From an uncultured virus (IMG/VR IMGVR_UViG_3300020727_000006) (lineage: Duplodnaviria; Heunggongvirae; Uroviricota; Caudoviricetes): DNA of 64,000 bases. The notes under the pieces are model-generated. The model did not search any database. It had not been told where the DNA came from and saw only the letters and a program-made list of their open reading frames with translations. Shown one piece after another: positions 1-45,786 of the stretch (the stretch's first letter is position 1; the number at the start of each line of letters is the position of its first letter). Made by a program: the position numbers and the translations under genes. The stretch lies in the IMG/VR virus record IMGVR_UViG_3300020727_000006. One strand, 5' to 3'.

Positions 1-3000
1 CCTCAATCATATCATATGGCGCAGTGCCATTGATTTTTACAACATTTTCACCGTCTTCATTTTCCAAGAAACCATCAACTGGACCAGACCCAAGTGGTGC
101 AACAGGCTTACGACGCTCTTGAGCAGTGCGTAATTCTTTTACAAGTTGTTCTTTGTCAATAGTGCCAGCAGTATATTTGGCAAACAATTGCATAGTGTTA
201 TCTTTTTCACTAATGCCGCCGCTTACAAACTTATACAATTTCTTTTGATATTCTTGGCGAGCATCTTCGGTATTAGCGGCTGCTCCCATAACACGAACAT
301 AGCGCAACATAGTCTTGCGAATTTCTTCGTATTGCTCAAAGTAATTACCGCCAGCACTACGGAACTCAATATAGTTTGGCTTGATGTTTACGCTAACATA
401 ACGGTCGCCACGAGGAACCAACAGTTTATTGATTTCTTTTTTGGCAATATCTTCCAATCCACCACGCATCTTATCAAGGATAGCAGGGATATTCTTTCTG
501 CCACTTCTGCCACGCACTTCACGCTTGGCTTGATCAAAACTACTCTTAGTCCATCGTGAACCAGCACGACCAAATGCTTTTAACACATACTCATCGCCAA
601 GCAACATGATTACTTTAAGATGGTCAATGTTTTCCATTGTTTGTAGTGGAATAGATACGCCAATATGGAAACCTGTTGTGCGGTTGGTATAATAATCATT
701 ACTCTTTGCCCAACTGAATACATTCTCTAACGCAGCCAACGCATCTTCTAGGTTCATTGGGGGTGATACAAGTTCAATACCACCATCTCCATCATTGTTT
801 GGACTATCAAGCGAACTATCTGGTTCAAATATCCAAGTTGTTTCATCACGGCTTGCTCCGTGATAACCGCCGCTTGCTCGTACCTTATAGCCAGTTGTGC
901 GTCTAAAATCATCAACGACATCGCCAATGTCTGTTGTTGGTTCTTCTCTACTGCTGCTAAATGTATAATGCGGCCAAGTTAGCGATTCACGAGTATTGCG
1001 ATTTACCCAACGCATCCAATCATACATATCACCAATGTTATTGCGATAAAGGAATTGACGCCAAATACCTTCTTCGTTTTCGCTCATCCAATTTTCACGA
1101 ACGCTGTCTTTGGCATCATCAAGTTCACGCTCACTTGCTTCGCCCATAGGCGTATCGCCTAATTCTTCTTGAATTGCATCTTTCCAATCGTCTGTATTTT
1201 CATAATTATCGTCATAATATTCAGATTGATAATCACTAAATGCTTCATAGAAAGATTCTAGCGCACTTTCAACATCACGGCGGGTATTGTGATCGCCAGC
1301 AAAAAAATCCATAACATCACGCTGACGATCACGATATGAAGCCGTGCCAGGAAAATCCTCATTGGCATCCATATCCTCTTCTTCTTCCTCTTCGCCTTCT
1401 TCGCCACCAAGACCAGGAATATACATTTCGGTTTCAAAGCCAACTTTCATACTCTTGGCAAATGGTGTATCGGCAAACTTTTCAAGAGATGTAGGACTCA
1501 TGTTGATTTCGTTTAGGATACTTTCTTCAAGGCTTTCTTCTCTGTTTGGAACTTCTCTTATATCCCAAGGTGCTGCTAAATTATGTTCATCAGCATAACT
1601 TACAGCATAGCGACGAGCACCAGTTAAACTTGCAGCGTTAAAGGTATGAACAACATGACCTTGATTATCTATAATATTATATGTTGTGCCATTTGTAGCA
1701 GTAATGTTAGAAGATGTGGCGGTTGCATTTGCTGAAATAGCATTGCCCGCAATATCATAACCACGATCTATTTCTAACTGTGAATATTGGCGAGGTGGTT
1801 CTGCTGCTGTTGGCTGTGAGGTTGGTATACCACGAATTAGTTGACCATTTAAGTCCCAGGTACTGTTATTTCCCGGCGATCTAATAGCAATATTAGCCAC
1901 ATCAATATGGTTCTGTTCTGCCCATCTTCTTGCGTTTTGTGATGCGCCATAAAAACCTGCTGCCTGAAATGATACTATTTCTCGACCATTACTTCTACTT
2001 ACGATACTATAAAGGGAATCACTTGATGCTGTTGCTGCTTGTGGCAATTGTAGTGCCTGTGTACCAGCACCAGGTATTGGTGTATTTGTGTCATCACTTG
2101 CAAGGGTTAGAAACCAATCAATATCACGATAACCGTATTCACGGGTCATACGAACAGCAATATCTCGTGCTTGCTCATCATTTGGCGCACGAAACTGTGT
2201 AACCGCCATTTGATTATTTGCTAAGCGAATCATATACATTGGTTGCATAGATAATACAGGTCGTTCACCGCCAATTGATAATGGTTGGCGTGTTAGAATA
2301 TCACCTGCTTGACCATCACGGGTATCTTTTAACGCAACTAAGTCAAATGAACGACCACTTGCTCGCACTATGCGTGCGGCAATATCATATACATCACTGT
2401 AAGTAATTCTTGGAGATACTACAAATTCTTGAATTACGCCACCAGTTATACGACTAATAATCTGGAATGTAATACCACCAATGCCATCGTAATCTACATG
2501 CGGTTCATCATCAGCCGCTTGTTTAGCATACGGATCACTTGACTGTGCTTTTGCTTTCTTAGCAAAATCACGCTTGCTTTGTGCATTTTTGATATAACTT
2601 ACAAGTGCTGTGCGAGGCATATTTCCAGTAGCAAACTGTGTAAAATACTTGATAGTATCGGTTTCGTCTTTTTTATCAGCAGTAAGTAGTTTTGCAAACT
2701 TCTTTTGATATTCTTTGCGTTCCATTTCTGGATGCAGCGCAATGTTCATAGCATATACGACACGAAGCAGCGTATTCACTACTTCATCGGTATCCATATC
2801 AATCCAATTGCCGCCTGGTGAACGAAACTCTACACGATTATCTTTTGTATTGATAGAGGTAAACTTGTCAGTATAACCATTGTGAATAAGTTTGGATGCT
2901 ACGGTATTCAAGTTCTTACGCATAGCATCAACGGCTTGGTCTGCCTTGCTTGGATTTTGTTTAATGAATGATGCAATCTGGTCAAAAGCACTGCGAGCAT

Positions 3001-4033
3001 AAGAATTACCAAGACGACCAAACTTTTCTAAAATATACTTGTCGCCTAAAAATAACGCAAGTTTAACATAGTCAAGTTTATCTAACTGATAACCTGGTAT
3101 AGAGATATTCATATGCAGACCAGTTTTATCATTGGTATAAGCATTGCCATCTTTTGCCCAAGCCTTGACCTTATTGATTTGGTCAATCATTGTTGGAATA
3201 TCAAGTGGTGGTGATACAAACTCTAAACCTTCGCCGCCTTTGCCACGAGTAGGTGATAGACTGCTATCTGGTTCAATAACATACGCATCATTTGGCTTTG
3301 TAATACCGTGATAAGAGCCGCTCTTAATAGTCTTCATGCCAACAGCACGACGGAAATCACCTACATCAACCGTAGAACGAGTTCTGCGATCATATTCATC
3401 AGGTTCTGTCCAGTGTGGCCAAGATAAAGAAAGAGCACCATCACTTGCCAAGTCATTCATGTAATTACCACCATAGGTATCTTCTAAAAATTTTTCCAGA
3501 TAATCGTCTATGTTATCATCATCTTCAATATTATCTACCCAAGTTTGGAAATATCTCTTTCTAAACTCTTCATATGGATCAATTTTTTCTATTTCACTGA
3601 ACAGTTCTTCTTGATTTTTATAATCACGACCATAGTTTTTGTCAATAAAATCTTGGATACGGTCACCAGCATAGGTATCCCATAGCGGACCATCAAGATA
3701 ATCGTGCCATGCTTGCTTCATAATATCGATTGCACGATTTACTTCACGACGGCTGTTATGATCGCCATAAAAGAATTGCATAACATCTTGTGCTAATGCG
3801 TTCCAACTCGCAGTAGATATACGCTCGTCCATATCATAATCTGGTTCGGATTCAAAGTCTTCATATGGATCATAATCATCGTCCTCTTCTTCTTCAAGAT
3901 TAGTGACGATAAGTTCAAATTCAAGACCTGCTTTTGCATTTGGAATCTTTGCCACTGCCGCACGAAGGGCTGCTGGCGACATGTTTACTTCGTTTAGGAT
4001 TTCTTCAAGGATCAGGTCTTTATCGTTTTTCAT
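1..4033 (-). CDS. Giant multidomain protein (at least 1344 aa, 3' end outside window) with two tandem putative amidoligase (COOH-NH2 ligase) domains
   Basis: ATG at 4033 gives MKNDKDLILEEILNEVNMSP...AGLEFE. Domain 1 has IEPDSSL, GLEFVSPP, TGLHMNIS, VEFRSPGG. Domain 2 is in the same frame (ATG at 1501: ILNEINMSP...VGFETE, FEPDSSL, IELVSPPM, TGFHIGVS, IEFRSAGG). The frame is still open at base 2, which explains its absence from the ORF track. Confidence 0.9.
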   Translation of the reverse strand, partial: MKNDKDLILEEILNEVNMSPAALRAAVAKIPNAKAGLEFELIVTNLEEEEDDDYDPYEDFESEPDYDMDERISTASWNALAQDVMQFFYGDHNSRREVNRAIDIMKQAWHDYLDGPLWDTYAGDRIQDFIDKNYGRDYKNQEELFSEIEKIDPYEEFRKRYFQTWVDNIEDDDNIDDYLEKFLEDTYGGNYMNDLASDGALSLSWPHWTEPDEYDRRTRSTVDVGDFRRAVGMKTIKSGSYHGITKPNDAYVIEPDSSLSPTRGKGGEGLEFVSPPLDIPTMIDQINKVKAWAKDGNAYTNDKTGLHMNISIPGYQLDKLDYVKLALFLGDKYILEKFGRLGNSYARSAFDQIASFIKQNPSKADQAVDAMRKNLNTVASKLIHNGYTDKFTSINTKDNRVEFRSPGGNWIDMDTDEVVNTLLRVVYAMNIALHPEMERKEYQKKFAKLLTADKKDETDTIKYFTQFATGNMPRTALVSYIKNAQSKRDFAKKAKAQSSDPYAKQAADDEPHVDYDGIGGITFQIISRITGGVIQEFVVSPRITYSDVYDIAARIVRASGRSFDLVALKDTRDGQAGDILTRQPLSIGGERPVLSMQPMYMIRLANNQMAVTQFRAPNDEQARDIAVRMTREYGYRDIDWFLTLASDDTNTPIPGAGTQALQLPQAATASSDSLYSIVSRSNGREIVSFQAAGFYGASQNARRWAEQNHIDVANIAIRSPGNNSTWDLNGQLIRGIPTSQPTAAEPPRQYSQLEIDRGYDIAGNAISANATATSSNITATNGTTYNIIDNQGHVVHTFNAASLTGARRYAVSYADEHNLAAPWDIREVPNREESLEESILNEINMSPTSLEKFADTPFAKSMKVGFETEMYIPGLGGEEGEEEEEEDMDANEDFPGTASYRDRQRDVMDFFAGDHNTRRDVESALESFYEAFSDYQSEYYDDNYENTDDWKDAIQEELGDTPMGEASERELDDAKDSVRENWMSENEEGIWRQFLYRNNIGDMYDWMRWVNRNTRESLTWPHYTFSSSREEPTTDIGDVVDDFRRTTGYKVRASGGYHGASRDETTWIFEPDSSLDSPNNDGDGGIELVSPPMNLEDALAALENVFSWAKSNDYYTNRTTGFHIGVSIPLQTMENIDHLKVIMLLGDEYVLKAFGRAGSRWTKSSFDQAKREVRGRSGRKNIPAILDKMRGGLEDIAKKEINKLLVPRGDRYVSVNIKPNYIEFRSAGGNYFEQYEEIRKTMLRYVRVMGAAANTEDARQEYQKKLYKFVSGGISEKDNTMQLFAKYTAGTIDKEQLVKELRTAQERRKPVAPLGSGPVDGFLENEDGENVVKINGTAPYDMIE

Positions 4034-4048
4034 TTATATATTTACCTG

Positions 4049-7000
4049 TTATTGTATCCATCCACCAGAAGCTGGCTTGTTTAAAAGTTGTGGTGGTAGA
4101 CTATGATCATCTGGTTCAATAAAAAAATCTTTAAGTTGATATCTTTCAGTTTTTACCCATGCTATTGCCCATTCAAGTGCTTTACTTGGTGATGTAAACT
4201 TTAACCCTTGTGGACCAAAATTGCTGCCATATGGTGGGTCACCTAGCCATATTCTATATACTTTATTCTTTGCATCTGCTGCTGCTTGTGCTTTATCTAC
4301 TTGACGCTTCTGCAAGCGCATTTTTAACACATTTTGGTCAATCAACCCGCTGGCATACATTGTAAAGTTAGTAAGTTGGTCATCGCCTTGTGGAATATGT
4401 TTAGCAATCATTGCATAAAGTTTTTTAGCATATTCTTCACGGTATGCTTGTGGGTCAGCCGCAATTGCCATTACTTGAACATACCGCAGCACAGTATTCT
4501 TGATGTCGTCTATATGTTCCATGAAGTTGCCGCCAGCACTGCGGAACTCAATGTAATTTCTTTTTATATTAACACTTACATAACGATCATTGTCCATTGA
4601 ACGATTTATAATTTCTTTTGCAACTTTTTCTAAGTTGATGCGCAGTTTTCTTGCATAGTCTTGTGATGTTGTTGCGCCGCCTCGTTTTTTAAATAACTTT
4701 TGTATTTGTGTAAACATGCTTTTAGTATATGCATTACTGCTGCGGTCAAATAGATTTAACACATACTGATCGCCAAGCAATATAATAACTTTTAGTGGGT
4801 CAACTTTTTCTTGTAAATCTTCTGGCAAACTAACTCCGACATGGAAACCAGTCGATGCATTACCATAATACCCATTTTGAGCAGCCCACATAAAAAATTT
4901 ATCTAGTGCTGCCATGCCTTGTTGCAGCGGCATTGGCGGTGAAACAAGTTCGATGCCGTTGTCATCGCCACTAATAGAACTATCTGGTTCAAGAATCCAA
5001 CTAATAGCATCGCGTTTTGCGCCATGGTATCCGCTACTAATTTTTGTTTTAAATCCGCTATATTCATTCCAATTCTTTGCAAGTTGCGCTATCGTTATCA
5101 CGCCACTAGGTTGCATATTTGGTTTTAAATAAGGGAACCATGCTCCGCCACCGCCGTATTCTGCATATTTTAAAACCCAATCGGATATGTTTTTAACATT
5201 TTCTGACTTTAGAAATTTTTTCCATTGCTTTTCATAATCTTCTGTGGAAAGTTCATTTATTGTTTTTGTAAAAAATATTGCTCGCGCCCGTGCACCCAAT
5301 CCATATGGATTGTTTGGTTCATCGGCAATTCTATCTCTTATCTCTCGCTGGCCTGACCAACCACTTCTGCGCCCGCCAAGATCGTCGTAGATTTTTTTAG
5401 CAATTACTTTTAAATTTTCTGGTTTCAGCATTTCATCAATCATGCTAGGATTTTTCTCAACTATATAATCAATGAATGACTGTTTCAAGGTCAATAAGTC
5501 ATCATTTATTGCTGACAAATCACTTTCATCAGTACCAGCATCCTTATACCAGTTTAAGACTTCATCTTGCCATGTTTTAGTAATTGGAAATCTGATATCT
5601 TTAGTCATGTCCCAATTTCTTGCATCTTGGCGAGGATCAGATTCATCGTCATCTTCATCTTCTAAACCAGGTACTAGCATTTCTGCTTCAAATCCAATAG
5701 TCATTGCTTGTGCTTGCGGAGTTGCGGCAAACTTTGCCAATGAACCAGGTGACATGTTTACTTCATCAAGCTCACCGACATAATCTACTTCGCTGCCGCC
5801 TGTATCTGGCTGAACCCAACGGTCCCAAGGAAAAACCGCTACCTGACGGTCAGGATAATCATTACCACCGCCCACCGTGCCAATAATGCTGCCAGCATGT
5901 TCACCAACAGAACTTGGACCAAGCAACTGCATAAATTTTGTTTTTTCTTGTGGCATGCTAAAATCATGACTTGAAGTTGCATTTCCTCTATTGCCATCAT
6001 AAACATCTACGGCAATATGTGGTCTTGATAGTGCAGATGCTGCATACACTCTATATAGTTTTTTAAGACTACCTAATGTTCCTTCTAGAAAAAATGTATT
6101 GGGAAGATTTACAAAACGAACATATCCTTGGGTAAATGCTTCTTCATATCCATCAATGTCGTTATCATAAAGCCATGACAGATGTTCTTCTGAACCAACA
6201 TATTCAACTTTTCGGTTAGGCAATATCCAACCATGTGTTTCATACTGGTCAAGTGCTTCTTCAATACTTTCTTTTTTGGCAGTGGCAGCACGGATTTTAG
6301 CAATAGCACTTTGTGCGGCATTATCACTCTTGGCTGGTTGTTGTGCCTCTGCATCCCACTTCTTATGCAAGAATGTCAGCAAATCTTTAATATCTTTGGC
6401 ACCAATCTTACGCATCGCAGCGATAATCTTAGTAGCAGTTTCATATCCACTATTGCCTGGCTTGCGAGCATTAGTAATTTCATTACGCAGTCCAAGGTCA
6501 TCAGCAAACTGACCGCCGTTCCAATAGGTTAAACTATAACGCAATTTATTTGCTTCTTTAGATAGCTCACTGCGGCTTTTCTTAAAGATAAGTTCCAACC
6601 AAGGAGCAAGATATTTCTTACCATTAAAGGTGCTTATATAACCTGTTTTCTTTTGACCACGAATTAACTCTTTAGCACTACTAACAGATATTGCTCGCTT
6701 TGTATCTTGTAATTTCCACGCATTTTCATTGCTATAAAGATAAGTTGGTAATCCGCGCTTCTTTGCCACAATCATCAATTGACGAGTGGTTGGACTTGCA
6801 AATTCACCTGCTTCTTTAAGCAAGATATGAATTGCTGTGATGGCATCTGCTGGTATAGATGGCTCACGAGAGAAAATACGGTCTTCACTTTCACTGTGCT
6901 TTTGCTTATCAAATCCTGCCCAATAATCAATTGCCTTCACAGGATAACGACGATTAAACCAATTGCCATCAAGATTAAACATAACGGCAGTGCCACCAGT

Positions 7001-9013
7001 AAACTCGTGATAGCCACCTACTTTGCTACGAGTAGTAGATAGAAAATAGTTATAACTTTTCGGCGCATACTGGTCTTCTACACTGCCAGTAGAAATGCTT
7101 AACATAAACTCATTGTTTTTAAGAATGTTTAATGCTGCACCCACACTGCCTGTATAATGGAACAACACTGGTGATGCTGCTTCGTCCAGACTTTCTGTTT
7201 CTTCTAAATCTTTACGATGACTACGCTTGTAATAACTGCACCAACCATTTGCCGCAATCTTGCCACTAACAGCCGAACAACCATGCGGAGGACGCCACAT
7301 AGTGCAGTGATCACAACGCTGACCATTGTGTGGCATAGCCTGATACTTTGCAACTGCTTTGGTTGACTTTTCTGCGGCTTCTTCAACTTTTCTTTTACTA
7401 ATTTCTTCAATATCACTATCGGGAACTAATCTTGCAGGTATACTATCTTTCTTAAGTGTTTTATAAGCCCAAAATCTATGATGCCCATCTAATACTTGAT
7501 ATCCACCTTTGTATTTGCGAACTAAAATAGGTGGTATATTTTCATTCTTCTTTAAACCATCTATAATTTTCGCAACATTTGCTTGGGCTTTTGGTAATTT
7601 CATCTTTTCATCTGGTTCAAACCCAACAAGTTCTTTCGTAGGAACATTAATTATAGGTAAACTGTCAAAACCGCTATCATCTACTTCTGCTCCAAAGTAA
7701 TCGGGATCAGTATAAAGTTTTACTTTGCCTTCTTTAACAGGATAAGTTGGCAATCCACGCAAATCAAGATTTGTGCCGTGTGTAGAGCCATAATAACCAT
7801 AAGGTTCTGTGATATCATGTTCTTCAAACTGTGCTGAATCAAAACCACGATTCCATAGCTTAGCTGCCTTGCTTCCAGTTTCATATGGATTTTGAGCACG
7901 AACATTCATACCATTAGTTTTAGATTTTAGTCCTGTAAGAAACCCTTCATGATATGGATCAGCATCACTTTCTGGTTCATTGCCCCATTCACCTTCAATG
8001 CCTGGCGCTTCTGTCATAATGCCCATTGCCTTCAACATAGCACGAGCAACTACACGATCTTTTTCTTTTTCTACTTCTGGCAACTGTGCATAAGTTTGTT
8101 GGGCAAGAGCATAACGCTTCTTTTTCTTATCGGGAATGGTTGGCGTATCTAACTGCAATTTGCCCATATAATCAGCCACGGCAGTCTTATTCCAACCATC
8201 GTGAATGGCACCAGCAATTGCTTCTACATCAGTAATACCACTAACAATCATACGCTTGGCAGCAGTGGCACTTTCAATATTTGCTAACCAACCAAAGTTA
8301 GCACCTGGTGTTGATAGACCATAATGATAGGCATCATCTAATGCCTTATCGCTAATGTGTGCAAGTTGTTCTACTGATAAACTTTCGGTAATAATGCTTT
8401 CATTGACAGATTCATTTTCGAGCGGGTCTTCTGGTAGATTAAGACCTAAACGCACGGTTTGGAATAGCGTTTTACCATCAACGACGAGGTTTTGTGGAAC
8501 TTGGGTTGCTCTTTCAAAGGCATCTGGGTCACCGTCTTTTGCTGCTTGTCTGGCATTTGTTGCATTTAGAATTCTTGGTGATTCCATAAAACTAAATGGT
8601 TCAAACTTATAAAAACCTTGTTCCATTTGCTTGCCATTATAATCTTCTAATAACTTGCGTAGTTGTGGCATATCATCTTCACCAGCAACAAAAGTTGCAC
8701 TACGAAATCCCTTTTCATAAAGATAAACTGCTGCTTGCATAATGGTTCTTATATTTGGATCAACTACAAGATGGTTTTTTGTTTCTGGATATAATGCATG
8801 TAACCATTTTACTTTTTGGTCGTAGGTAAGTGGATTTTTTTTACTATCGTGTGTTTTTGTCACAAATATTGCCCAAGCACCTGCTTTTGCTGTTGCCTTG
8901 ACAGTGTTAATAACTCCCATATGACCTCTGTGGGGCGGCTGCATGCGTCCCCAACAAAAACTAATGTGTGGATTAGGGGCTTCTGTAAATACAGTTCTGT
9001 GGCTCAAAGTCAT
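4049..9013 (-). CDS. 1654-aa multidomain (poly)protein: cytidylyltransferase-like, RyR-like, RMF-like, ParB/Srx, HiPIP, ART-like, unknown and amidoligase modules
   Basis: GRMQPPHRGH (HxGH); YAQLPEVEKEKDR; YHEGF..NPY..WNRGF; PPILV..VLDGHHR; CDHC..C..GWC; FHYT..STTRS..ESEDR; IGFEAE..EPDSS..ELVSPP..TGFHVGVS..IEFRSAGG. Confidence 0.85.
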   Translation of the reverse strand: MTLSHRTVFTEAPNPHISFCWGRMQPPHRGHMGVINTVKATAKAGAWAIFVTKTHDSKKNPLTYDQKVKWLHALYPETKNHLVVDPNIRTIMQAAVYLYEKGFRSATFVAGEDDMPQLRKLLEDYNGKQMEQGFYKFEPFSFMESPRILNATNARQAAKDGDPDAFERATQVPQNLVVDGKTLFQTVRLGLNLPEDPLENESVNESIITESLSVEQLAHISDKALDDAYHYGLSTPGANFGWLANIESATAAKRMIVSGITDVEAIAGAIHDGWNKTAVADYMGKLQLDTPTIPDKKKKRYALAQQTYAQLPEVEKEKDRVVARAMLKAMGIMTEAPGIEGEWGNEPESDADPYHEGFLTGLKSKTNGMNVRAQNPYETGSKAAKLWNRGFDSAQFEEHDITEPYGYYGSTHGTNLDLRGLPTYPVKEGKVKLYTDPDYFGAEVDDSGFDSLPIINVPTKELVGFEPDEKMKLPKAQANVAKIIDGLKKNENIPPILVRKYKGGYQVLDGHHRFWAYKTLKKDSIPARLVPDSDIEEISKRKVEEAAEKSTKAVAKYQAMPHNGQRCDHCTMWRPPHGCSAVSGKIAANGWCSYYKRSHRKDLEETESLDEAASPVLFHYTGSVGAALNILKNNEFMLSISTGSVEDQYAPKSYNYFLSTTRSKVGGYHEFTGGTAVMFNLDGNWFNRRYPVKAIDYWAGFDKQKHSESEDRIFSREPSIPADAITAIHILLKEAGEFASPTTRQLMIVAKKRGLPTYLYSNENAWKLQDTKRAISVSSAKELIRGQKKTGYISTFNGKKYLAPWLELIFKKSRSELSKEANKLRYSLTYWNGGQFADDLGLRNEITNARKPGNSGYETATKIIAAMRKIGAKDIKDLLTFLHKKWDAEAQQPAKSDNAAQSAIAKIRAATAKKESIEEALDQYETHGWILPNRKVEYVGSEEHLSWLYDNDIDGYEEAFTQGYVRFVNLPNTFFLEGTLGSLKKLYRVYAASALSRPHIAVDVYDGNRGNATSSHDFSMPQEKTKFMQLLGPSSVGEHAGSIIGTVGGGNDYPDRQVAVFPWDRWVQPDTGGSEVDYVGELDEVNMSPGSLAKFAATPQAQAMTIGFEAEMLVPGLEDEDDDESDPRQDARNWDMTKDIRFPITKTWQDEVLNWYKDAGTDESDLSAINDDLLTLKQSFIDYIVEKNPSMIDEMLKPENLKVIAKKIYDDLGGRRSGWSGQREIRDRIADEPNNPYGLGARARAIFFTKTINELSTEDYEKQWKKFLKSENVKNISDWVLKYAEYGGGGAWFPYLKPNMQPSGVITIAQLAKNWNEYSGFKTKISSGYHGAKRDAISWILEPDSSISGDDNGIELVSPPMPLQQGMAALDKFFMWAAQNGYYGNASTGFHVGVSLPEDLQEKVDPLKVIILLGDQYVLNLFDRSSNAYTKSMFTQIQKLFKKRGGATTSQDYARKLRINLEKVAKEIINRSMDNDRYVSVNIKRNYIEFRSAGGNFMEHIDDIKNTVLRYVQVMAIAADPQAYREEYAKKLYAMIAKHIPQGDDQLTNFTMYASGLIDQNVLKMRLQKRQVDKAQAAADAKNKVYRIWLGDPPYGSNFGPQGLKFTSPSKALEWAIAWVKTERYQLKDFFIEPDDHSLPPQLLNKPASGGWIQ

Positions 9014-9043
9014 TATGTTATCCAGATAAATTATTTATCTGAA

Positions 9044-9694
9044 TTATACTTGACGATTTCTTTGTCGCAATGTCTCTGCAATTCTTGCTTTTAATTCCGC
9101 TGCTTTTTCTGGCCCATGTATTTCTTCAAATGTTTTTCCTTTTAATGCTTTACTAATATTTGCACGGTATTCATCTGATCTTGGTGGTTTTGATTTTCCT
9201 ATGTTTGCAGCACGAAGTTTTTCACGAGTTTCTTCTGAACGAGGTTTTCCTATTTTAGCAAGTCTTGCTGCTTCTGTATGTTCTTTTGGTCTTTTAATTC
9301 CATACATTGAGTTATTTTTTCCAGAAGTTAATATTGATAATTCTATTTTAATATATTCATAAACTCTGCCATGCGGTTTATATCTTCCAATATGTTTATC
9401 ATTTTTTCCTAAAAGATTAATAACTGCAAAACTCATTTTTTGTTTAAATTTTCCAAAAGTAATCTTTGTTAATAAACGATGGCAAATCCAATGCTCTCTT
9501 GCCGTCAATAAAACTTTATTCCATGATTCTTTTTTGTATTCTGGAAACCAACATTTTGGCAGTATATGATGTGCTTCATAATACACACCATTATTTTTCT
9601 TGCGATTTTGTAATTGTGCTGCTACAATAATAGCATAATACCAATGGGTATATTTGTTATCCAGAAACTGGTTCTGGTGGCTATAAATATTCAT
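9044..9694 (-). CDS. HNH homing endonuclease with NUMOD3-like repeats
   Basis: EAHHILPKC...NKVLLTAREHWICHRLL; C-terminal KPRSEETREKL / RSDEYRANIS repeats. Confidence 0.85.
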   Translation of the reverse strand: MNIYSHQNQFLDNKYTHWYYAIIVAAQLQNRKKNNGVYYEAHHILPKCWFPEYKKESWNKVLLTAREHWICHRLLTKITFGKFKQKMSFAVINLLGKNDKHIGRYKPHGRVYEYIKIELSILTSGKNNSMYGIKRPKEHTEAARLAKIGKPRSEETREKLRAANIGKSKPPRSDEYRANISKALKGKTFEEIHGPEKAAELKARIAETLRQRNRQV

Positions 9695-9762: not shown

Positions 9763-10890
9763 TTAATTGGGCGTCCAGCGGTGTCTTGGAACTAATTTTA
9801 TATTTGGTTGACCAAATTGAACATAGCCCTCACCACCAGGAACTCCACGGGTTGATTGCTGTATGTCTGAAGATTCTTTATCAATTTGGTCAATAATTTG
9901 ATTCTTGACTGTGCGAAGATTCTCTAGTGTAGCAAAGGTTGCAATAAAACCTTTTTGGTTTTGCTTAATCCAGTCGCTAATCTTTGCTTGCATTGGTCCG
10001 CTTTGTTTGCTGCTACTGTTTAACCAGTTTACAAACTCACTGGCAAGATCGCTTGTTCTTCCAACTCTTGCCATTTGATTATTAAAGTTATAAAGAACGC
10101 CTTTAAACCCTGCCATTTTCATAGCAGCAAGGCGGTCATCGTCCAAGAAGTTATCAATTACATTTTTGTTTGCAGCAATATACTTTTGTAAGTCTTGTAA
10201 CTTTTTTGTATCTACTTTTATAGGCTGTTGTGCATATCGTGGACCTAACACAATCAATCCTTGTGTTTGATTAAATTTAGTGAAGTCATCTATTGGTTGC
10301 TGTTGATCATCGCCCATGCCAAACTGTGGAAAATAAGCATGTCCAACAACTGCTGCAGTTGCTTTTGAAATGCGCTGCCCAAGTTCAGTTGTTGCTGGTA
10401 CGCTATATGTTACATTGTTTGGTGTAAAGGTATATGAATCATTTTCCATTTGTGGGCGGCGCATAAACAACAAATCACCATATACATAACCACGAAAATC
10501 TTTAGGAGTGGCTGCTTCAAATAGCGCCCATAGACTAGCATACTCGTTTGCAAAACGCATACGCTCATCTTCTTTGTCTGGCGTTACATTGCCAGTGCTC
10601 ATAATAAATTTTACAAGTTCTTGTGGACTGCGGCTTTTTCCGCTGCCGTTTGGTTTTAACCAACCGTTGTGTCCAACCATGATAAAACTGCCATCTGGTT
10701 CGCGGCCCCAATATACTTGAGGTTTTCCATCCCATTTCCAACGAATTTGAGTTGGGCTACGAGCAAGATCACTAAGGCGACTAGCTGCAGTCTCTGCTCC
10801 AGCACTGCCACTGATGAGCACAAGGTCTTCTACATGCTGAAATGCACGACCAACTTTTGGGGCTTCGTTAATAATTTGGTTTATAAACAT
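9763..10890 (-). CDS. Ligase-superfamily nucleotidyltransferase-like protein (KWDG type)
   Basis: Motif I-like KWDGKP, GDL, and C-terminal EGYV...KLV; starts MFINQIINE. Confidence 0.6.
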   Translation of the reverse strand: MFINQIINEAPKVGRAFQHVEDLVLISGSAGAETAASRLSDLARSPTQIRWKWDGKPQVYWGREPDGSFIMVGHNGWLKPNGSGKSRSPQELVKFIMSTGNVTPDKEDERMRFANEYASLWALFEAATPKDFRGYVYGDLLFMRRPQMENDSYTFTPNNVTYSVPATTELGQRISKATAAVVGHAYFPQFGMGDDQQQPIDDFTKFNQTQGLIVLGPRYAQQPIKVDTKKLQDLQKYIAANKNVIDNFLDDDRLAAMKMAGFKGVLYNFNNQMARVGRTSDLASEFVNWLNSSSKQSGPMQAKISDWIKQNQKGFIATFATLENLRTVKNQIIDQIDKESSDIQQSTRGVPGGEGYVQFGQPNIKLVPRHRWTPN

Positions 10891-10900
10891 TATGCAATAT

Positions 10901-11377
10901 TTATAGGTTTTCTAAGAACCACATATATGTGGGAACTGAAAACTTCAACCGCCATTCGCCGTTGAAACCAAAGTTTTGATACTTTTCAGGCTCTGGTGTA
11001 TCTGAAAAAACAGGAGAACCATTGCTAGTTCCTGTCTGGCGATAAAATTCACCAGATGAATAGTATAGATAATCTAATTCAATTTCATCAATCTCAACTT
11101 GTTTTAAGTTTAACAGTTGGTCTTTTAAAATTTTTCCGCTATCATCTACTTGCGTGTTTATGTCTGTTTTACCAAGAAGGCGAATTTTTAAATAATGTTC
11201 GCCTTCTTCTAAATCTTCGCTAAAACTAATGATCTTTTGCTGACCATCTTCTTCTTTTTCAGTAACTTGTCCATATTCTATAAAATCATCATCAATCAAT
11301 ATCTCATAGTTTGGCGCATCTTTCCACCAAACAGAATCCATTGTTAATTTAAATTCTACAGTTTCAATATCGGACAT
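10901..11377 (-). CDS. Hypothetical acidic protein
   Basis: 158-aa ORF tightly packed in operon. Confidence 0.7.
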   Translation of the reverse strand: MSDIETVEFKLTMDSVWWKDAPNYEILIDDDFIEYGQVTEKEEDGQQKIISFSEDLEEGEHYLKIRLLGKTDINTQVDDSGKILKDQLLNLKQVEIDEIELDYLYYSSGEFYRQTGTSNGSPVFSDTPEPEKYQNFGFNGEWRLKFSVPTYMWFLENL

Positions 11378-12302: not shown

Positions 12303-12674
12303 TTATGTATTATATAGCACTCTGCCGATGTTACCCGCAGAAAAGTTTGTTACATGGGCGCGACACCAGACAAAGTTGCCAGTAAAATTGAAATAATAAG
12401 TTCCTGAAACAGAAGTAGTTCCATCACCAATGCTGGTGTTGGGAACATCAAACCAATCGCTTTCTTGTGGATTGGTTACGAGAGTAGCTTGAAATTTTAA
12501 TATGCCGTTAAAAGCTATGACATTGTAGGTTACTGTATGTAAACCATCAGTATAACCATAATAGCCATTGCCTTTAAGCTTGTTACTGCTCCAAGTAGTA
12601 CTAACGCCATCATATGGCGGATAAACTTGTCCAAATTGAATTGCACTTAATACTACTTGCGGTAAACTAGCCAT
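12303..12674 (-). CDS. Hypothetical, probably structural beta-rich protein
   Basis: 123-aa G/T/Y-rich ORF. Confidence 0.6.
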   Translation of the reverse strand: MASLPQVVLSAIQFGQVYPPYDGVSTTWSSNKLKGNGYYGYTDGLHTVTYNVIAFNGILKFQATLVTNPQESDWFDVPNTSIGDGTTSVSGTYYFNFTGNFVWCRAHVTNFSAGNIGRVLYNT

Positions 12675-13187: not shown

Positions 13188-13889
13188 TTACACCTTTACT
13201 CTCTTTACTAATTTGTAAACTTTTTTAATTCCATTTTGAAATAACATATACAACAGTGGAATATTGTCTGCACTTCTGCAGAATACACGAACACTGCCAT
13301 AATAATAATGATTATCAAGTCCTATCATAGCACGAGAACACCAACGGTTTAGTTCAAATGACAGGAACAAATCATCTTTGTTGTTATTAACAAACTCATA
13401 CAATTCAAGCAAGTTTTGTCTTTGTGTTTGTTTGCTACTACCTTGCCCACCACCTACCCAACCCCAATAAGTTTCAAAGTCAACTTGATAAGGAACTGTT
13501 GGATCATATTTTTTCTCACTTACCAGTTTAACATCTACTGCGATATTGTCAAGGTTTTTTATCGCTGTAATATACTGATCATTACTTGTGGTAAATCTTT
13601 TGACTGCGGCAAGAAGTGATGGATCATCAAGAATAGCATCAAGTGCTGTCGTGCTATTGGTAAAGAAACGCAAGTATGATTCTTTACGAAGCCGACAGTC
13701 TGGGTCAAGATTTTTTAAGGTTTTTCGCATATTTTCACGAATATCCCAATCTCTTGGAATTGTTAATTCTACACGAAAGTGATACTTGCCATACCACAGT
13801 TTGTTTTCGGTATCAATGCGCCACTTAAACAAATGGTCTCTGAACTGATCACGGTATTCAATCAGCGTTAATTCTGCTATCTCTGTCAT
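13188..13889 (-). CDS. Hypothetical protein
   Basis: 233-aa ORF overlapping the clpA end. Confidence 0.65.
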   Translation of the reverse strand: MTEIAELTLIEYRDQFRDHLFKWRIDTENKLWYGKYHFRVELTIPRDWDIRENMRKTLKNLDPDCRLRKESYLRFFTNSTTALDAILDDPSLLAAVKRFTTSNDQYITAIKNLDNIAVDVKLVSEKKYDPTVPYQVDFETYWGWVGGGQGSSKQTQRQNLLELYEFVNNNKDDLFLSFELNRWCSRAMIGLDNHYYYGSVRVFCRSADNIPLLYMLFQNGIKKVYKLVKRVKV

Positions 13890-16095: not shown

Positions 16096-16101
16096 ATTAT
16101 T

Positions 16102-16129
16102 AATATAACAGATTTCTATTGTTTGTCAA
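16102..16129 (-). promoter_or_regulatory. Sigma70-like early promoter, representative of a family
   Basis: TTGACA-N16-TATATT; same spacing at 45279-45306(-), 57470-57497(-), 58799-58826(-) and 58841-58868(+). Confidence 0.7.
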
Positions 16130-16998
16130 GTATTTATAGGACGAATTTTTTGAATTTCTTTGATTAAATTTAACTGGTCGGTTGTTAGAGCAGTTGGTAT
16201 CATGATATTGATCTTGGCTATGTATTTGCCTCTACCAGCGTTATGGTTTCTAGGAAAACCTTCGTCTGTAATGCCAAACTGCGATTGGTGCTGCGTTCCT
16301 GGCGGAACATATAACTCTATTGTTCTGCCGCTTGGTAATTGTACAGTAAGTGTATGCCCAATAATTGCTTGGAAACAATCAATGGTTATGTCTTCAATGA
16401 TGTTTTCGCCATTTCTGAAAAACCTGTTATGTGGCTTTACTCGTATAGCTACTTCAAGGTTTCCACGAGGGATGCCAATATTTAAATCATCACCGCGATT
16501 GGCAACAGTAAAAACTGTGCCACTATCAACGCCACTAGGAATCTCAATCTGCAGTGTTTCTGTTGTATTTGAAGTTTTATATTCTAGAACTTTAACCTGC
16601 GAATTGAGTGTTTCTAAAAAATCTAGTTCAACTGTTAATCTGATATTACGATTGCGCTGTGGTTGACGAGTGTGAAACCCAAAATGTTGAAAAATTTGTT
16701 CATGTATGTTTGGAAATGGATCGCCAGCATTAAAATTAAAATTAAATTCAAATGGATTGCCGCCGCCAGAATGTTGTGCATGTGGGCTATACTGTGGTTG
16801 AGGATTGCGCAGCATATGGTCATAATGTGCACGAGCGTTTTGATCACTTAGTGTACTATATGCCTCGTTAATCTGCTGAAACTTAGCCTGATCACCGCCC
16901 ATATCTGGGTGATGTTGTTTAGCAAGGCTTCTAAAAGCAGCCTTTAATTCTTCGGGGCTAGCACTTTCCGCTACGCCAAGTGTTTGATAATGACTCAT
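16126..16998 (-). CDS. DnaJ/CbpA-like co-chaperone
   Basis: J-domain with HPD, G/F-rich linker, DnaJ C-terminal domain, no Zn fingers. Confidence 0.9.
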   Translation of the reverse strand: MSHYQTLGVAESASPEELKAAFRSLAKQHHPDMGGDQAKFQQINEAYSTLSDQNARAHYDHMLRNPQPQYSPHAQHSGGGNPFEFNFNFNAGDPFPNIHEQIFQHFGFHTRQPQRNRNIRLTVELDFLETLNSQVKVLEYKTSNTTETLQIEIPSGVDSGTVFTVANRGDDLNIGIPRGNLEVAIRVKPHNRFFRNGENIIEDITIDCFQAIIGHTLTVQLPSGRTIELYVPPGTQHQSQFGITDEGFPRNHNAGRGKYIAKINIMIPTALTTDQLNLIKEIQKIRPINT

Positions 16999-18048: not shown

Positions 18049-18433
18049 TGGATATACCTTTATTGACTGTATCTTCTATACAACGGAATGATTTTGCAGT
18101 CGCGTCATTCATACGCTTTTTAACTTCGGCTGGCTTAGTTGCAGCAAATGCGCCAAGATCACGATTATTCTTTGTAAATTTTGCCTGAATATCATCTGCT
18201 TCATTGCGAGCAGATTGGTAATCATCAAATGTTTTTTGTGATATGGCTTGCTGTTCTTTTAAATCTGCTTGTGTTTTTTCAAGTGTTGCTGTTGTTGTCT
18301 TAAGAGCAAAGTCTTTTGTTGCAACTTCTTGATTTAACCTCGCGAGTTCATCTTGGGTATATTTAAAATACCCAACCCCTGCGCCAATTAAACCAATGAT
18401 AACAAATATCTTCCAAAGACTGAATCCAAACAT
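18032..18433 (-). CDS. i-spanin-like protein
   Basis: N-terminal TM helix, coiled coil, C-terminal Cys residues. Confidence 0.75.
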   Translation of the reverse strand: MFGFSLWKIFVIIGLIGAGVGYFKYTQDELARLNQEVATKDFALKTTTATLEKTQADLKEQQAISQKTFDDYQSARNEADDIQAKFTKNNRDLGAFAATKPAEVKKRMNDATAKSFRCIEDTVNKGISNVKGC

Positions 18434-19531: not shown

Positions 19532-19642
19532 AGCAACACCTTTGAGATATTTATGATTGTAGACATGCATTATAGATATCGTTTTAATTACTTAAACGAG
19601 TCATTAAATACTTTTGAGTTACAACCAACTCAGGGAATAAAC

Positions 19643-31819: not shown

Positions 31820-31820
31820 T

Positions 31821-45780: not shown

Positions 45781-45786
45781 GTCCAT

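What the first reader, a model, noticed from the sequence alone, without database searches (positions are those of the whole stretch)
1..9013. Candidate virion-packaged polyproteins: unrelated enzyme modules joined by prohead-protease-like sites
Seen: the 1654-aa ORF strings together about eight unrelated modules, and the boundaries fall at hydrophobic-x-E motifs. These are TVFTE/APN, SVNESIITE/S, IMTE/APG, PVKE/GK, KVEE/AA, ESLDE/AA, ESIEE/AL and ELDE/VNMSP. The neighbouring giant ORF has EILNE/VNMSP and SLEESILNE/INMSP before each amidoligase domain. Known: T4 gp21 cleaves head and internal proteins after (I/L)-x-E, and T4 Alt and IPs are packaged, processed and injected. Inference: these are polyproteins loaded into the head, cut into separate effectors at maturation and injected as a host-takeover or anti-defence kit, with the linker acting as a modular cassette junction.
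Basis: partly seen in the sequence, partly recalled or inferred. Interest (0 to 1): 0.92.

Follow-up and report, generated by a model that had tools for sequence, protein, structure and literature searches.

The report
Protease-jointed phage capsid cargo polyproteins
Two giant genes of an uncultured T4-like giant phage encode chains of unrelated enzymes joined at short peptides that fit the cutting rule of the phage head protease, so the chains are probably packed into the capsid and cut into separate enzymes, though no cut has been measured.

Summary

- **Shuffling at the sites:** Related phage contigs gain, lose and swap whole modules at these Glu-ending sites. 10 of 24 insertion clusters have Glu exactly on both edges, against a null of 0.0097 per event (P about 1e-14).
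- **Linkers:** All 10 junction Glu of residues 1-1100 lie in or next to low-confidence AlphaFold linkers.
- **Stand-alone forms:** The same modules occur alone behind about 9-13-residue leaders that resemble the T4 capsid targeting sequence. These leaders end in [L/I/V]-x-E at the same border.
- **Protease:** 2 of 3 searched related contigs encode a T4 gp21-type prohead protease.
- **Virion evidence:** Homologs of two modules were found by mass spectrometry in virions of cultured phages.

Modules include an NMNAT-like nucleotidyltransferase, a sulfiredoxin/ParB-like domain, a HiPIP, a DarT/Tpt1-like ADP-ribosyltransferase fold and three amidoligases.

Cutting, packaging and injection of these proteins remain unmeasured. 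I read this as a new variant of the T4 internal-protein system. This scan noted the same design before on eight other genomes.

The parts
8981..9013 (-). P0001 residues 1-11, N-terminal leader MTLSHRTVFTE, ending in F-T-E before APNPH
   Evidence: pLDDT is below 50 for residues 1-12. Stand-alone homologs of the next module start with MARIKDILTE|APQHVSF. One relative (L005) starts directly at M-ANNPH without the leader.
8384..8980 (-). P0001 12-210, module M1: cytidylyltransferase-like (NMN/NaMN adenylyltransferase-like) nucleotidyltransferase, ending ESIITE-210
   Evidence: PF01467 scores 23.7 bits against a cut-off of 21. phrog_3041 scores 4.7e-32. Foldseek finds NadD, NMNAT and PPAT at E 2e-4 to 2e-3. 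It is 31% identical (E 2e-26) to the S-CREM2 virion cytidylyltransferase.
8009..8383 (-). P0001 211-335, module M2: all-helical domain, weak RyR-domain match, ending GIMTE-335
   Evidence: PF02026 scores 15.1 bits, below its 27.4 cut-off, so it is a lead only. The block folds confidently over 210-333. Stand-alone forms of 131-137 aa carry leaders such as MEPIRKYINVVE|SAQSVEQLA.
7730..8008 (-). P0001 336-428, module M3: unknown, predicted without confidence, ending YPVKE-428
   Evidence: pLDDT is below 50 over 334-427. There is a faint RMF match, E 0.072. The module is absent from L002 and replaced by a shorter variant in L006 and L018.
7379..7729 (-). P0001 429-545, module M6: sulfiredoxin/ParB_N-like domain, ending RKVEE-545
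   Evidence: phrog_723 scores 4.3e-7. PF02195 scores 19 bits, below its 26.3 cut-off. Foldseek finds sulfiredoxin 6ky4 at E 1e-4. The module is cleanly absent in L008 (PIKE|AAEKS). Stand-alone forms start MAWVPAKKLAE|GKVKLYTD.
7181..7378 (-). P0001 546-611, module M8: HiPIP-like four-Cys domain, plus the tandem sites DLEE-605 and TESLDE-611
   Evidence: The PDB entry PioC 6xyv_A matches at E 4.7e-7 over 548-596. PF01355 scores 21.6 bits against a cut-off of 22. Relatives insert five different modules between the two Glu sites.
6257..7180 (-). P0001 612-919, module M10: ADP-ribosyltransferase fold (DarT/Tpt1-like) plus a helical C-terminal half, ending KESIEE-919
   Evidence: AlphaFold gives pLDDT 91.1 and pTM 0.84. 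VIA-align gives Tpt1 7yw4 Z 10.7 (rmsd 2.3 over 112 residues) and DarT Z 8.6-9.6. Foldseek finds DarT at E 1.1e-3. 148 homologs were found, mostly stand-alone proteins of 285-300 aa.
5900..6256 (-).
   Evidence: The module is cleanly absent in L002 and L011, and a second copy sits elsewhere in L003. Its pLDDT is mixed.
5762..5899 (-). P0001 1039-1084, segment M12: short, unstructured in the model, ending GELDE-1084
   Evidence: pLDDT is below 50 over 1032-1095.
4052..5761 (-). P0001 1085-1654, module M13: Amidoligase_2 domain starting VNMSP, with a small C-terminal domain
   Evidence: PF12224 scores 29.8 bits against a cut-off of 22. 105 of 119 homologs have [L/I/V/F]-x-E just before the VNMSP-type motif, and in 86 of those this lies within the first 25 residues. 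The Atu_ph07 homolog gp196 is in the virion proteome.
3989..4033 (-). P0002 residues 1-15, leader MKNDKDLILEEILNE before VNMSP
   Evidence: The same peptide is internal (ITEELLNE|VAMSP) where the two genes are fused in L021 and L010.
2534..3988 (-). P0002 16 to about 500, first amidoligase module
   Evidence: PF12224 scores 44.5 bits with two stretches.
1508..2533 (-). P0002 about 501-842, run of small repeated domains ending SLEESILNE-842
   Evidence: Copy number differs among relatives, but that indel does not fall on Glu sites (L003_8646 against L007_16362).
2..1507 (-). P0002 843-1344, second amidoligase module starting INMSP; the C-terminus is cut off by the window start
   Evidence: phrog_33777 scores 1.4e-22 and phrog_2443 scores 1.4e-8. 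Full-length relatives are 1554-1632 aa.
9763..10890 (-). Upstream DUF6267 gene (375 aa) with leader MFINQIINE before APK; probably a further cargo gene of the same block
   Evidence: PF19782 scores 98.7 bits. The leader is seen. TATAAATA lies at 10898-10905 (-), 8 nt upstream of the start. phrog_455 joins this family to the M1 nucleotidyltransferase.

Best explanation
P0001 and P0002 are capsid-cargo polyproteins of a T4-like giant phage.

**Proposed mechanism.**
1. A short N-terminal leader, the counterpart of the T4 capsid targeting sequence, takes the chain into the scaffolding core of the prohead.
2. When the gp21-type prohead protease is activated, it cuts after Glu at each [V/L/I/F/M]-x-E|[A/G/S...] junction.
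3. This releases about nine separate pieces from P0001: an NMNAT-like nucleotidyltransferase, a helical RyR-like domain, an unknown piece, a sulfiredoxin/ParB-like domain, a HiPIP, a DarT/Tpt1-like ADP-ribosyltransferase-fold protein, two unknown pieces and an amidoligase. It releases at least three pieces from P0002.
4. The pieces stay in the head with the DNA and are delivered at infection.

The junction is a portable 'cut here' element. It lets evolution add, drop, swap, split or fuse cargo modules without disturbing neighbours.

**Shown here:** module borders, cassette shuffling at the sites, leaders on stand-alone forms, and the protease gene in relatives.
**Inferred:** targeting, cutting, retention, injection and the role in the host.
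For: 1. **Cassette shuffling.**
   - Relatives L002-L023 insert, delete or replace whole modules at the Glu sites. For example, the window has PVKE|GKV...KVEE|AAEKS where L008 has PIKE|AAEKS.
   - 183 pairwise insertion events fall into 24 clusters. 10 of the 24 have Glu at P1 on both insert edges and in the partner. The simulated null is 0.0097, giving a binomial P of about 1e-14.
2. **Junction logo.** From 38 distinct junction peptides, P3 is V15 L7 I6 A5 T3 Q2 and P1' is A18 G8. Proteases of the gp21 family cut C-terminal to Glu after a short motif (PMC5694885 and PMC9026906 passages).
3. **Stand-alone homologs.**
   - M10: 117 of 120 listed homologs have the H-Y motif, and all 117 have Glu 3-10 residues before it. 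The Glu is residue 9 in 80 of them. P3 is L78 I36 V2 F1.
   - M10: 94 of 120 fit a T4-CTS-like pattern. The T4 CTS is MKTYQEFIAE (PMC8442874 passage).
   - Amidoligase: 105 of 119 carry the site, 86 of them within 25 residues of the start.
   - N-terminal modules: 50 of 120 have a leader-type site at residues 7-12, against 10.5% at internal offsets.
4. **Conservation.** The junction Glu is invariant in 77 of 77 aligned M10 sequences.
5. **AlphaFold.**
   - The M10 junction peptide is unstructured and the fold starts 5 residues after the Glu.
   - In residues 1-1100, 10 of 10 junction Glu lie in or within 1 residue of pLDDT<50 segments, which cover 32.5% of positions (P about 1e-5). Of the 12 other [LIVMF]-x-E motifs, 7 lie inside confident folds.
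6. **Protease and head genes.** PF03420 (Peptidase_S77) was found on 2 of 3 searched related contigs that carry the polyprotein gene, at 90 and 92 bits. It sits in a T4-order head module of portal, protease, scaffold-like protein and major capsid protein.
7. **Virion mass spectrometry in cultured phages.**
   - Atu_ph07 gp196, the amidoligase homolog two genes from the portal: 14 unique peptides, 30.2% coverage.
   - S-CREM2 ORF154, 31% identical to M1 with leader MKNFSSFLTE: 3 peptides, 11.2% coverage.
8. **Gene borders move at the same sites.** The genes are split in L022, L018 and L008 and fused into a 2845-aa ORF in L021.
Against: - No measurement exists for this phage. It is uncultured, its own assembly is not held, and the protease was found only on related contigs; 1 of 3 searched contigs had none.
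- 14 of 24 insertion clusters do not have Glu exactly on both edges. Most of these are composite events or have divergent double linkers, but that is my reading of them.
- The leader of P0001 (MTLSHRTVFTE) resembles the T4 CTS only in length and in its ending.
- 36 of 120 shorter relatives of the N-terminal half start directly with a GGFHPFH nucleotidyltransferase motif and have no leader. 34 more have no clear leader.
- The VNMSP peptide after the amidoligase site is itself conserved, so that site could be part of the enzyme.
- In P0002 the small-domain repeats vary in number without Glu borders.
- T4-type late promoter words are not enriched in the window: 4 found against 8.4 expected.
- The two virion detections are of distant stand-alone homologs. 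One rests on only 3 peptides.
Confidence: 0.68

Rival explanations
1. The proteins are uncut multidomain 'polyvalent' proteins. On this reading the Glu-ending linkers are relics of the leaders of once-separate capsid-targeted genes that became fused. Alternatively they are short repeats that favour recombination between cassettes. They would not be working protease sites.
For: Polyvalent proteins with 2-15 unrelated domains are a described class, and some are transferred at full length (PMC5512222 passages). Junction peptides are similar to each other (ESVSE, NLDE, KVNE), which would also favour recombination. No cleavage has been measured.
Against: At the junctions only the [V/L/I]-x-E|small part of the leader is kept, while the rest of the leader pattern is lost. 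That pattern is what selection for cutting would give, not for descent or targeting. The Glu is invariant in 77 of 77 M10 sequences. Tandem double sites occur (DLEE|TESLDE|, LANE|NLDE|). The junctions sit in unstructured linkers.
Confidence: 0.17
2. The proteins are cytoplasmic multi-enzyme proteins made during infection and are not packaged. They would work in nucleotide/NAD metabolism and peptide ligation (amidoligase plus gamma-glutamyl cyclotransferase). If cut at all, they would be cut by another protease.
For: - The modules are metabolic-type enzymes.
- Two GGACT genes lie in the window, and GGACT-amidoligase fusions exist.
- 36 of 120 relatives start without any leader.
- A ClpA/B-type unfoldase and a DnaJ lie 5 kb upstream.
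Against: Stand-alone homologs carry T4-CTS-like leaders at rates far above the internal-offset control. Homologs of two modules were found in purified virions. The Clp-like protein has no protease domain.
Confidence: 0.1
3. The proteins are structural virion components, such as head decoration, inner body or tail-associated proteins, rather than delivered enzymes. On this reading the enzyme-like folds would be inactive scaffolds.
For: Virion-structural PHROG families lie nearby (12303-12674 and 18433-19570). Atu_ph07 gp196 was most abundant in high-mass gel bands.
Against: Nucleotide-binding and catalytic-type motifs are conserved. M1 keeps its PPHRGH motif. In M10 the residues H, S-T-T-R and E-x-E-D-R are invariant or nearly so across 77 sequences. 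A module content that changes freely is unlike structural proteins.
Confidence: 0.05

Closest known systems
Phage T4 internal proteins IPI, IPII, IPIII and Alt: capsid targeting sequence plus gp21 processing
   Same: - A short N-terminal leader ends in a hydrophobic-x-Glu site.
- A gp21-family protease sits in a T4-order head gene module of related contigs.
- The cargo is diverse, and only the leader is shared (PMC3012670 passage).
- Alt is an ADP-ribosyltransferase cut at both ends (PMC9026906 passages). M10 here has an ADP-ribosyltransferase fold flanked by sites on both sides.
   Different: - In T4 each cargo is one gene with one leader. Here up to nine or more cargo modules are strung in one ORF of 1654 aa, or at least 2845 aa in L021, with an internal site at every border.
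- The cargo set is different: nucleotidyltransferase, HiPIP, sulfiredoxin-like domain and amidoligases.
- The host phages appear to be giant. CheckV rates contigs of 111-117 kb as 33-35% complete.
Polyvalent proteins of phages and conjugative elements (Iyer et al. 2017, PMC5512222)
   Same: Domains of unrelated biochemistry share one polypeptide, including ParB-like and ADP-ribosyltransferase domains. Delivery with the invading DNA and proteolytic processing are proposed (abstract and passages).
   Different: That paper proposes processing by peptidase domains built into the protein (zincin-like, assemblin-like, LonC). No peptidase domain was found in P0001 or P0002, and the sites here fit the separate prohead protease. 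The words amidoligase, cyanophage and RyR do not occur in its main text. Cassette borders defined by cleavage motifs are not described in the passages I read.
Ejection and inner-body proteins of giant phages phiKZ, 201phi2-1 and SPN3US
   Same: Many head proteins are cut C-terminal to Glu at a short motif by a gp21 homolog, and they are packaged and ejected. Redundant sites occur within propeptides (PMC5694885 and PMC9026906 passages).
   Different: In those phages long propeptides are removed from single proteins, at A-x-E or S/A/G-x-E motifs. Here the pieces between the sites are themselves folded enzymes, and the motif has V/L/I at P3.

Membership tests
T4-type capsid-targeted, gp21-processed internal head proteins | N-terminal capsid targeting sequence of about 10 residues like MKTYQEFIAE | tested here: inconclusive
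   P0001 starts MTLSHRTVFTE and P0002 starts MKNDKDLILEEILNE. Length and ending fit, but the rest fits only loosely. Stand-alone homologs fit well: 94 of 120 for M10, and MRLNEIFEEKLDE-type leaders on the amidoligases. The T4 sequence is from a PMC8442874 passage.
T4-type capsid-targeted, gp21-processed internal head proteins | Cleavage motif: hydrophobic residue at P3 and Glu at P1 | tested here: met
   Ten junctions in P0001 have P3 = F, I, M, V, V, L, L, I, V, L and P1 = E. Both P0002 sites are L-N-E. That gp21-family proteases cut after Glu is from paper passages. The exact T4 rule L/I-x-E is recalled.
T4-type capsid-targeted, gp21-processed internal head proteins | gp21-family prohead protease encoded by the same phage | tested here: inconclusive
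   PF03420 was found on 2 of 3 searched related contigs that carry the polyprotein gene. The window's own assembly is not held, and no protease was seen among 66 window ORFs scanned with Pfam.
T4-type capsid-targeted, gp21-processed internal head proteins | Protein present in the virion in processed form and ejected into the host | not testable with these tools
   The only evidence is virion mass spectrometry of distant stand-alone homologs: Atu_ph07 gp196 and S-CREM2 ORF154.
Polyvalent proteins (Iyer et al. 2017) | Several domains of disparate biochemical activity in one polypeptide of a phage or mobile element | tested here: met
   The domains are a nucleotidyltransferase, a sulfiredoxin/ParB-like domain, a HiPIP, an ADP-ribosyltransferase fold and an amidoligase.
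Polyvalent proteins (Iyer et al. 2017) | Built-in peptidase domain for processing (zincin-like MPTase, assemblin-like, LonC); a common theme, not strictly required | tested here: not met
   No peptidase family was found in the Pfam or PHROG scans of P0001 and P0002 at E up to 0.1 and 0.01 respectively.
Amidoligase_2 (PF12224) | Match above the curated Pfam cut-off | tested here: met
   P0001 scores 29.8 bits and P0002 scores 44.5 bits, against a cut-off of 22.
ADP-ribosyltransferase superfamily, DarT/Tpt1-like branch (module M10) | ART fold | tested here: met
   The model has pLDDT 91.1. VIA-align gives Tpt1 at Z 10.7 (rmsd 2.3 over 112 residues) and DarT at Z 8.6-9.6 over 140-144 residues. 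All 50 rows shown are ART-fold proteins or the related CC0527. The Foldseek best E of 1.1e-3 is only marginal.
ADP-ribosyltransferase superfamily, DarT/Tpt1-like branch (module M10) | NAD-binding and catalytic residues in the right places | tested here: inconclusive
   H619, the S-T-T-R stretch at 659-662 and E708-x-E710-D-R are invariant or nearly so in 77 sequences. I did not map them onto the DarT or Tpt1 active sites. That these resemble ART signatures is recalled.
High-potential iron-sulfur protein (module M8) | HiPIP sequence match with four Cys ligands | tested here: inconclusive
   PF01355 scores 21.6 bits against a cut-off of 22. PDB PioC matches at E 4.7e-7 over 548-596. Four Cys are present in that stretch. 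The AlphaFold model there has low confidence.
ParB_N / sulfiredoxin fold (module M6) | Family match and fold | tested here: inconclusive
   PF02195 scores 19 bits, below its 26.3 cut-off. PHROG ParB-like families score 4.3e-7. Foldseek finds sulfiredoxin at E 1e-4 with 20-28% identity.
Cytidylyltransferase-like nucleotidyltransferases (module M1) | Match above the Pfam cut-off, with the H-x-G-H motif | tested here: met
   PF01467 scores 23.7 bits against a cut-off of 21. PPHRGH lies at residues 26-31. Foldseek finds NaMN/NMN adenylyltransferases and PPAT. The substrate was not determined.

The most novel reading that the evidence does not exclude
T4-like giant phages have turned the prohead-protease site into a portable genetic 'joint'. 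Any protein placed between two such joints in a leader-bearing chain is loaded into the capsid, cut free and delivered in fixed stoichiometry. The cargo genes would then evolve as a plug-and-play library, with hundreds of architectures already visible in metagenomes. On this reading the chain carries an NAD/ADP-ribose-centred first-strike kit, delivered before any phage gene is expressed. The kit would comprise an NMNAT-like enzyme, a DarT/Tpt1-like ADP-ribosyltransferase, a sulfiredoxin-like domain, a HiPIP and amidoligases paired with a leader-bearing gamma-glutamyl cyclotransferase.
Probability: 0.3. Interest if true: 0.85.

Novelty: new variant of a known kind. Interest (0 to 1): 0.72.

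Why it matters
**If the chains are cut as proposed:**
- One leader and a six-residue joint would be enough to load and release many enzymes from a phage head. This would explain how large T4-like phages diversify what they inject.
- It would give a simple sequence rule for finding injected proteins in uncultured phages, a set that is otherwise almost impossible to predict.
- It would extend the established T4 CTS packaging technology to multi-protein payloads.
- It would point to untested early-infection activities: a DarT/Tpt1-like ADP-ribosyltransferase fold, NMNAT-like enzymes, and amidoligases that have no known substrate.

**If the chains are not cut:** the precise cassette borders still show an unusual mode of domain shuffling.

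Tried and rejected
- **Close relatives:** Megablast of window 1-9100 against 50,697 phage records gave no match.
- **Own genome:** The window's own assembly is not held. The nearest record, G001, is a 33-kb fragment with no match to P0001.
- **Neighbouring protease idea:** I considered that the conserved 'ATP-dependent protease' PHROG 5 kb upstream (13858-16095) does the cutting. Pfam shows a ClpA/B-type double AAA+ unfoldase with no protease domain, so I rejected this.
- **Exact-Glu test:** The strict test failed in 14 of 24 insertion clusters. These include composite events joined from partial alignments and junctions with divergent double linkers, where the Glu is 1-2 residues from the computed break.
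- **P0002 indel:** One 109-aa indel in P0002 relatives does not fall on Glu sites.
- **Late promoters:** TATAAATA occurs 4 times against 8.4 expected by chance, so it is not enriched. Three of the four do sit just upstream of gene starts. P0001 itself has only GATAAATA.
- **RsoM2USA virion proteomics:** These cover 10 gel bands only and say nothing about its amidoligase homolog.
- **Cluster look-up:** Looking up ten homologs gave no organism names.
- **Literature, polyprotein cargo:** Three searches looked for a description of polyprotein cargo cut by a prohead protease.
  - 'polyprotein' + 'prohead protease' + 'internal proteins' + 'bacteriophage': 0 papers.
  - 'capsid targeting sequence' + 'polyprotein': 1 paper, where the word refers to a displayed FMDV antigen.
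  - 'polyprotein' / 'ejection proteins' / 'prohead protease': 8 papers held at least two of the terms (7 listed). None held 'polyprotein' together with 'ejection proteins', and none of the listed titles or abstract openings describes such cargo; I did not read all of them.
- **Weak domain matches:** RMF-like (E 0.072) and RyR-like (E 0.027) matches are kept only as leads.
- **Foldseek on M10:** On its own it gave no match at E <= 0.001. The fold call rests on the VIA-align second look.
Full report
**What is in the window.** Window 4049-9013 (-) encodes a 1654-aa protein, P0001. Window 2-4033 (-) encodes a 1344-aa protein, P0002, whose C-terminus is cut off by the window start.

The surrounding genes identify a large T4-like phage. 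They include a clamp loader, a GroES-like head-morphogenesis protein, RNA ligase 1, a baseplate-wedge-like giant protein, PhoH, MazG, homing endonucleases and virion structural PHROGs. No close relative exists among 50,697 deposited phage genomes. IMG/VR holds 26 related loci at 36-98% identity.

**Modules of P0001.**

| Residues | Module | Identity and evidence |
|---|---|---|
| 1-11 | leader | ends F-T-E |
| 12-210 | M1 | cytidylyltransferase-like nucleotidyltransferase: PF01467 above cut-off; PHROG 4.7e-32; Foldseek to NaMN/NMN adenylyltransferases and PPAT |
| 211-335 | M2 | helical domain with only a weak RyR match |
| 336-428 | M3 | unknown, modelled without confidence |
| 429-545 | M6 | sulfiredoxin/ParB_N-like |
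| 546-611 | M8 | four-Cys HiPIP-like; PDB PioC E 4.7e-7 |
| 612-919 | M10 | ADP-ribosyltransferase fold, see below |
| 920-1038 | M11 | unknown |
| 1039-1084 | M12 | unknown, short |
| 1085-1654 | M13 | Amidoligase_2 |

P0002 consists of a 15-residue leader, an amidoligase, a run of small repeated domains and a second amidoligase.

For M10, an AlphaFold model built from 77 sequences has pLDDT 91.1. Its first 160 residues align to tRNA 2'-phosphotransferase Tpt1 (Z 10.7, rmsd 2.3 over 112 residues) and to DarT DNA ADP-ribosyltransferases (Z 8.6-9.6). Foldseek alone was marginal, with a best E of 1.1e-3. The protein-atlas leads were DarT/PARP and Arr.

**Cassette shuffling at the sites.** Translating the related loci shows the same gene with different module content.
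- L008 lacks the sulfiredoxin-like module: it reads PIKE|AAEKS where the window reads PVKE|GKV...KVEE|AAEKS.
- L006 carries three extra modules, each bounded by ...E|.
- L013, L019 and L003 insert different modules after the first enzyme.
- Five different inserts occur between DLEE-605 and LDE-611.

Gene borders move too. In L022, L018 and L008 the first gene stops before the amidoligase, and the next gene starts MSDKDLILEEILNE|VNMSP. In L021 and L010 everything is one ORF of at least 2845 aa (L021).

A junction finder that does not use the motif found 183 pairwise insertion events in 24 clusters. In 10 of the 24, the best-scoring placement has Glu immediately before the insert, as the last residue of the insert, and in the partner. 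Simulated deletions in the same proteins give this pattern at a rate of 0.0097, so P is about 1e-14. I took a cluster as positive if any of its pairs was, which is slightly generous.

The other 14 clusters are near misses with divergent double linkers, composite events, or, in P0002, an indel away from any Glu site.

The 38 distinct junction peptides have V/L/I at P3 in 28 cases and A in 5. They have A or G at P1' in 26.

**Stand-alone forms carry head-targeting-type leaders.** The modules are mostly separate proteins elsewhere.
- **M10:** 148 homologs were found and 120 listed, mostly 285-300 aa. 117 of the 120 have the conserved H-Y motif, and all 117 have Glu 3-10 residues before it. That Glu is residue 9 in 80 of them. 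P3 is L78, I36, V2, F1.
- **M10 leaders:** Typical starts are MRAQEFLTE|AAS and MKINEILTE|GAT, and 94 of 120 fit such a pattern. The T4 capsid targeting sequence is MKTYQEFIAE, cut once by the head protease (PMC8442874 passage). The junction Glu is invariant in 77 of 77 aligned sequences.
- **Amidoligase:** 105 of 119 homologs have [L/I/V/F]-x-E before VNMSP. The site lies within 25 residues of the start in 86 of them (typically MRLNEIFEEKLDE|VNMSP) and is internal in 19.
- **N-terminal half:** 526 shorter relatives exist in very many architectures. Of the 120 listed, 50 have a leader-type site at residues 7-12, against 10.5% at internal offsets. These include stand-alone M1 (MARIKDILTE|APQHVSF), M2 (MRIKELNE|SLSVEE) and the sulfiredoxin-like module (MAWVPAKKLAE|GKVKLYTD).
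- **Against the reading:** 36 of those 120 start directly with a different nucleotidyltransferase motif and no leader, and 34 are unclear.

**Structure.** In the M10 model the junction peptide is unstructured, and the first strand begins 5 residues after the Glu. A model of residues 1-1100 (73 sequences, mean pLDDT 68) has confident blocks at 13-199, 210-333, 428-539 and 611-892. All 10 junction Glu lie in or within one residue of segments with pLDDT below 50. Those segments cover 32.5% of positions, so P is about 1e-5, a rough figure. Of the 12 other [LIVMF]-x-E motifs in that range, 7 lie inside confident folds.

**The protease.** The window's own genome is not held. Five related loci were named in the search, and three of their contigs were held and searched. 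Two of those three encode Peptidase_S77 (T4 gp21 family) at 90 and 92 bits. In one of them the gene order is:
1. portal;
2. a small protein;
3. an acidic protein starting MRSQYEQLIE;
4. protease;
5. scaffold-like protein;
6. major capsid protein.

CheckV rates these contigs of 111-117 kb as 33-35% complete. That suggests genomes above 300 kb, which is an inference.

Proteases of this family cut C-terminal to Glu after a short motif. T4 head proteins lose 7-65-residue propeptides, Alt is cut at both ends, and redundant sites are known in phiKZ (passages of PMC9026906 and PMC5694885).

**Experimental anchors.**
- **Atu_ph07:** In Agrobacterium phage Atu_ph07 the amidoligase homolog is CDS 196. 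It matches at E 7e-20, is 500 aa long and starts ...KKLTE|LKMNSS. It lies two genes from the T4-like portal, CDS 198. I checked the numbering through the gene lengths of CDS 195 and 198. The paper's supplementary virion table lists gp196 with 14 unique peptides and 30.2% coverage (PMC6102473 supplement).
- **S-CREM2:** In T4-like cyanophage S-CREM2, cytidylyltransferase ORF154 was detected in virions with 3 peptides and 11.2% coverage (PMC10665884 passages). It is 31% identical to M1 (E 2e-26) and starts MKNFSSFLTE.

**Reading.**
- **Shown:** the module borders, cassette exchange at Glu-ending joints, homologous stand-alone proteins with leaders ending at the same border, and a gp21-type protease in related phages.
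- **Inferred:** that the chains enter the prohead, are cut at the joints, stay in the head and are delivered.

At the junctions only the [V/L/I]-x-E|small part of the leader survives. This argues for selection on cutting rather than for mere relics of fusion. I put 0.68 on the cargo-polyprotein mechanism. The role of the pieces in the host is open. The folds suggest action on NAD or nucleotides and on nucleic acids, but no activity was tested.

**Comparison and novelty.** The closest known system is the T4 internal-protein/Alt system, with a diverse cargo and only the CTS conserved (PMC3012670 passage). Next come the polyvalent proteins of Iyer et al. (PMC5512222) and the processed ejection proteins of giant phages.

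What differs here:
- the cargo is concatenated, with a protease site at every border;
- the sites serve as exchange points;
- no built-in peptidase is present.

Three literature searches found no description of this design. The searched library lacks most subscription journals.

This scan has noted the same design on eight other genomes. I formed my reading before seeing those notes. One of them prompted the search for virion proteomics of the nucleotidyltransferase.

Noticed in passing
window 45316-45786 (-): A gamma-glutamyl cyclotransferase (GGACT, PF06094) starts MDMKINEIILE|AGG, a T4-CTS-like leader. A second GGACT at 33617-34042 has none. Some amidoligase homologs elsewhere are fused to GGACT. 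The amidoligase cargo may therefore work with a co-packaged cyclotransferase.
   Followed up: partly
window 61842-62567 (+) and 62549-63916 (+): Two adjacent genes of unknown family start with strong CTS-like leaders: MRSREFITE|S, and MRASEFLIE|A after an upstream Met. This may be a second cargo-gene block at the far end of the window.
   Followed up: no
window 13858-16998 (-) and 22004-22378 (-): The phage encodes its own chaperone set. It has a ClpA/B-type double AAA+ unfoldase (745 aa, no protease domain), a full DnaJ (J domain plus C-terminal domain) next to it, and a GroES-like co-chaperonin. The Clp-like gene is conserved about 5 kb upstream of the polyprotein gene in the related loci.
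   Followed up: partly
window 9044-9694 (-): A homing endonuclease (NUMOD3, phrog_655) sits between the DUF6267 gene and the polyprotein gene.
   Followed up: no
window 24208-24624 (-): The MazG-like pyrophosphatase starts MTDLKLYQEFVTE|V, whose YQEF..E core resembles the T4 CTS. This could be chance or a further packaged enzyme.
   Followed up: no
window 1508-2533 (-), P0002 residues about 501-842: There are about four small repeated domains of about 50-60 residues, each a strand-rich start followed by a helix with conserved aromatic and Ala positions. They lie between the two amidoligases, and a similar one ends P0001. Copy number varies among relatives, and no family match was found.
   Followed up: no
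window 31472-31849 (-) and 37376-38878 (-), with P0001 546-605: There is an iron-sulfur theme. An Fe-S cluster biosynthesis protein (PF01521) and a 500-aa radical SAM protein are encoded in the same window as the HiPIP-like cargo module.
   Followed up: no
L029 524-5209 (-) (related contig G003): A 1561-aa Gly/Asn/Thr-rich repetitive protein with no PHROG match lies directly beside the major capsid protein gene.
   Followed up: no
Atu_ph07 gp196 (L033 5416-6918): In the published virion gel, this 57.9-kDa amidoligase homolog was found in bands 1-4 and 13 and was most abundant in band 2. If band 1 is the top of the gel (my assumption; the gel figure was not seen), this is an odd place for its size. 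It might mean cross-linking or aggregation.
   Followed up: no
window 22820-23335 (-): A 171-aa ORF matches only a piece of the DNA polymerase III alpha NTPase domain (PF07733, phrog_11127). This suggests a split or fragmentary polymerase gene.
   Followed up: no
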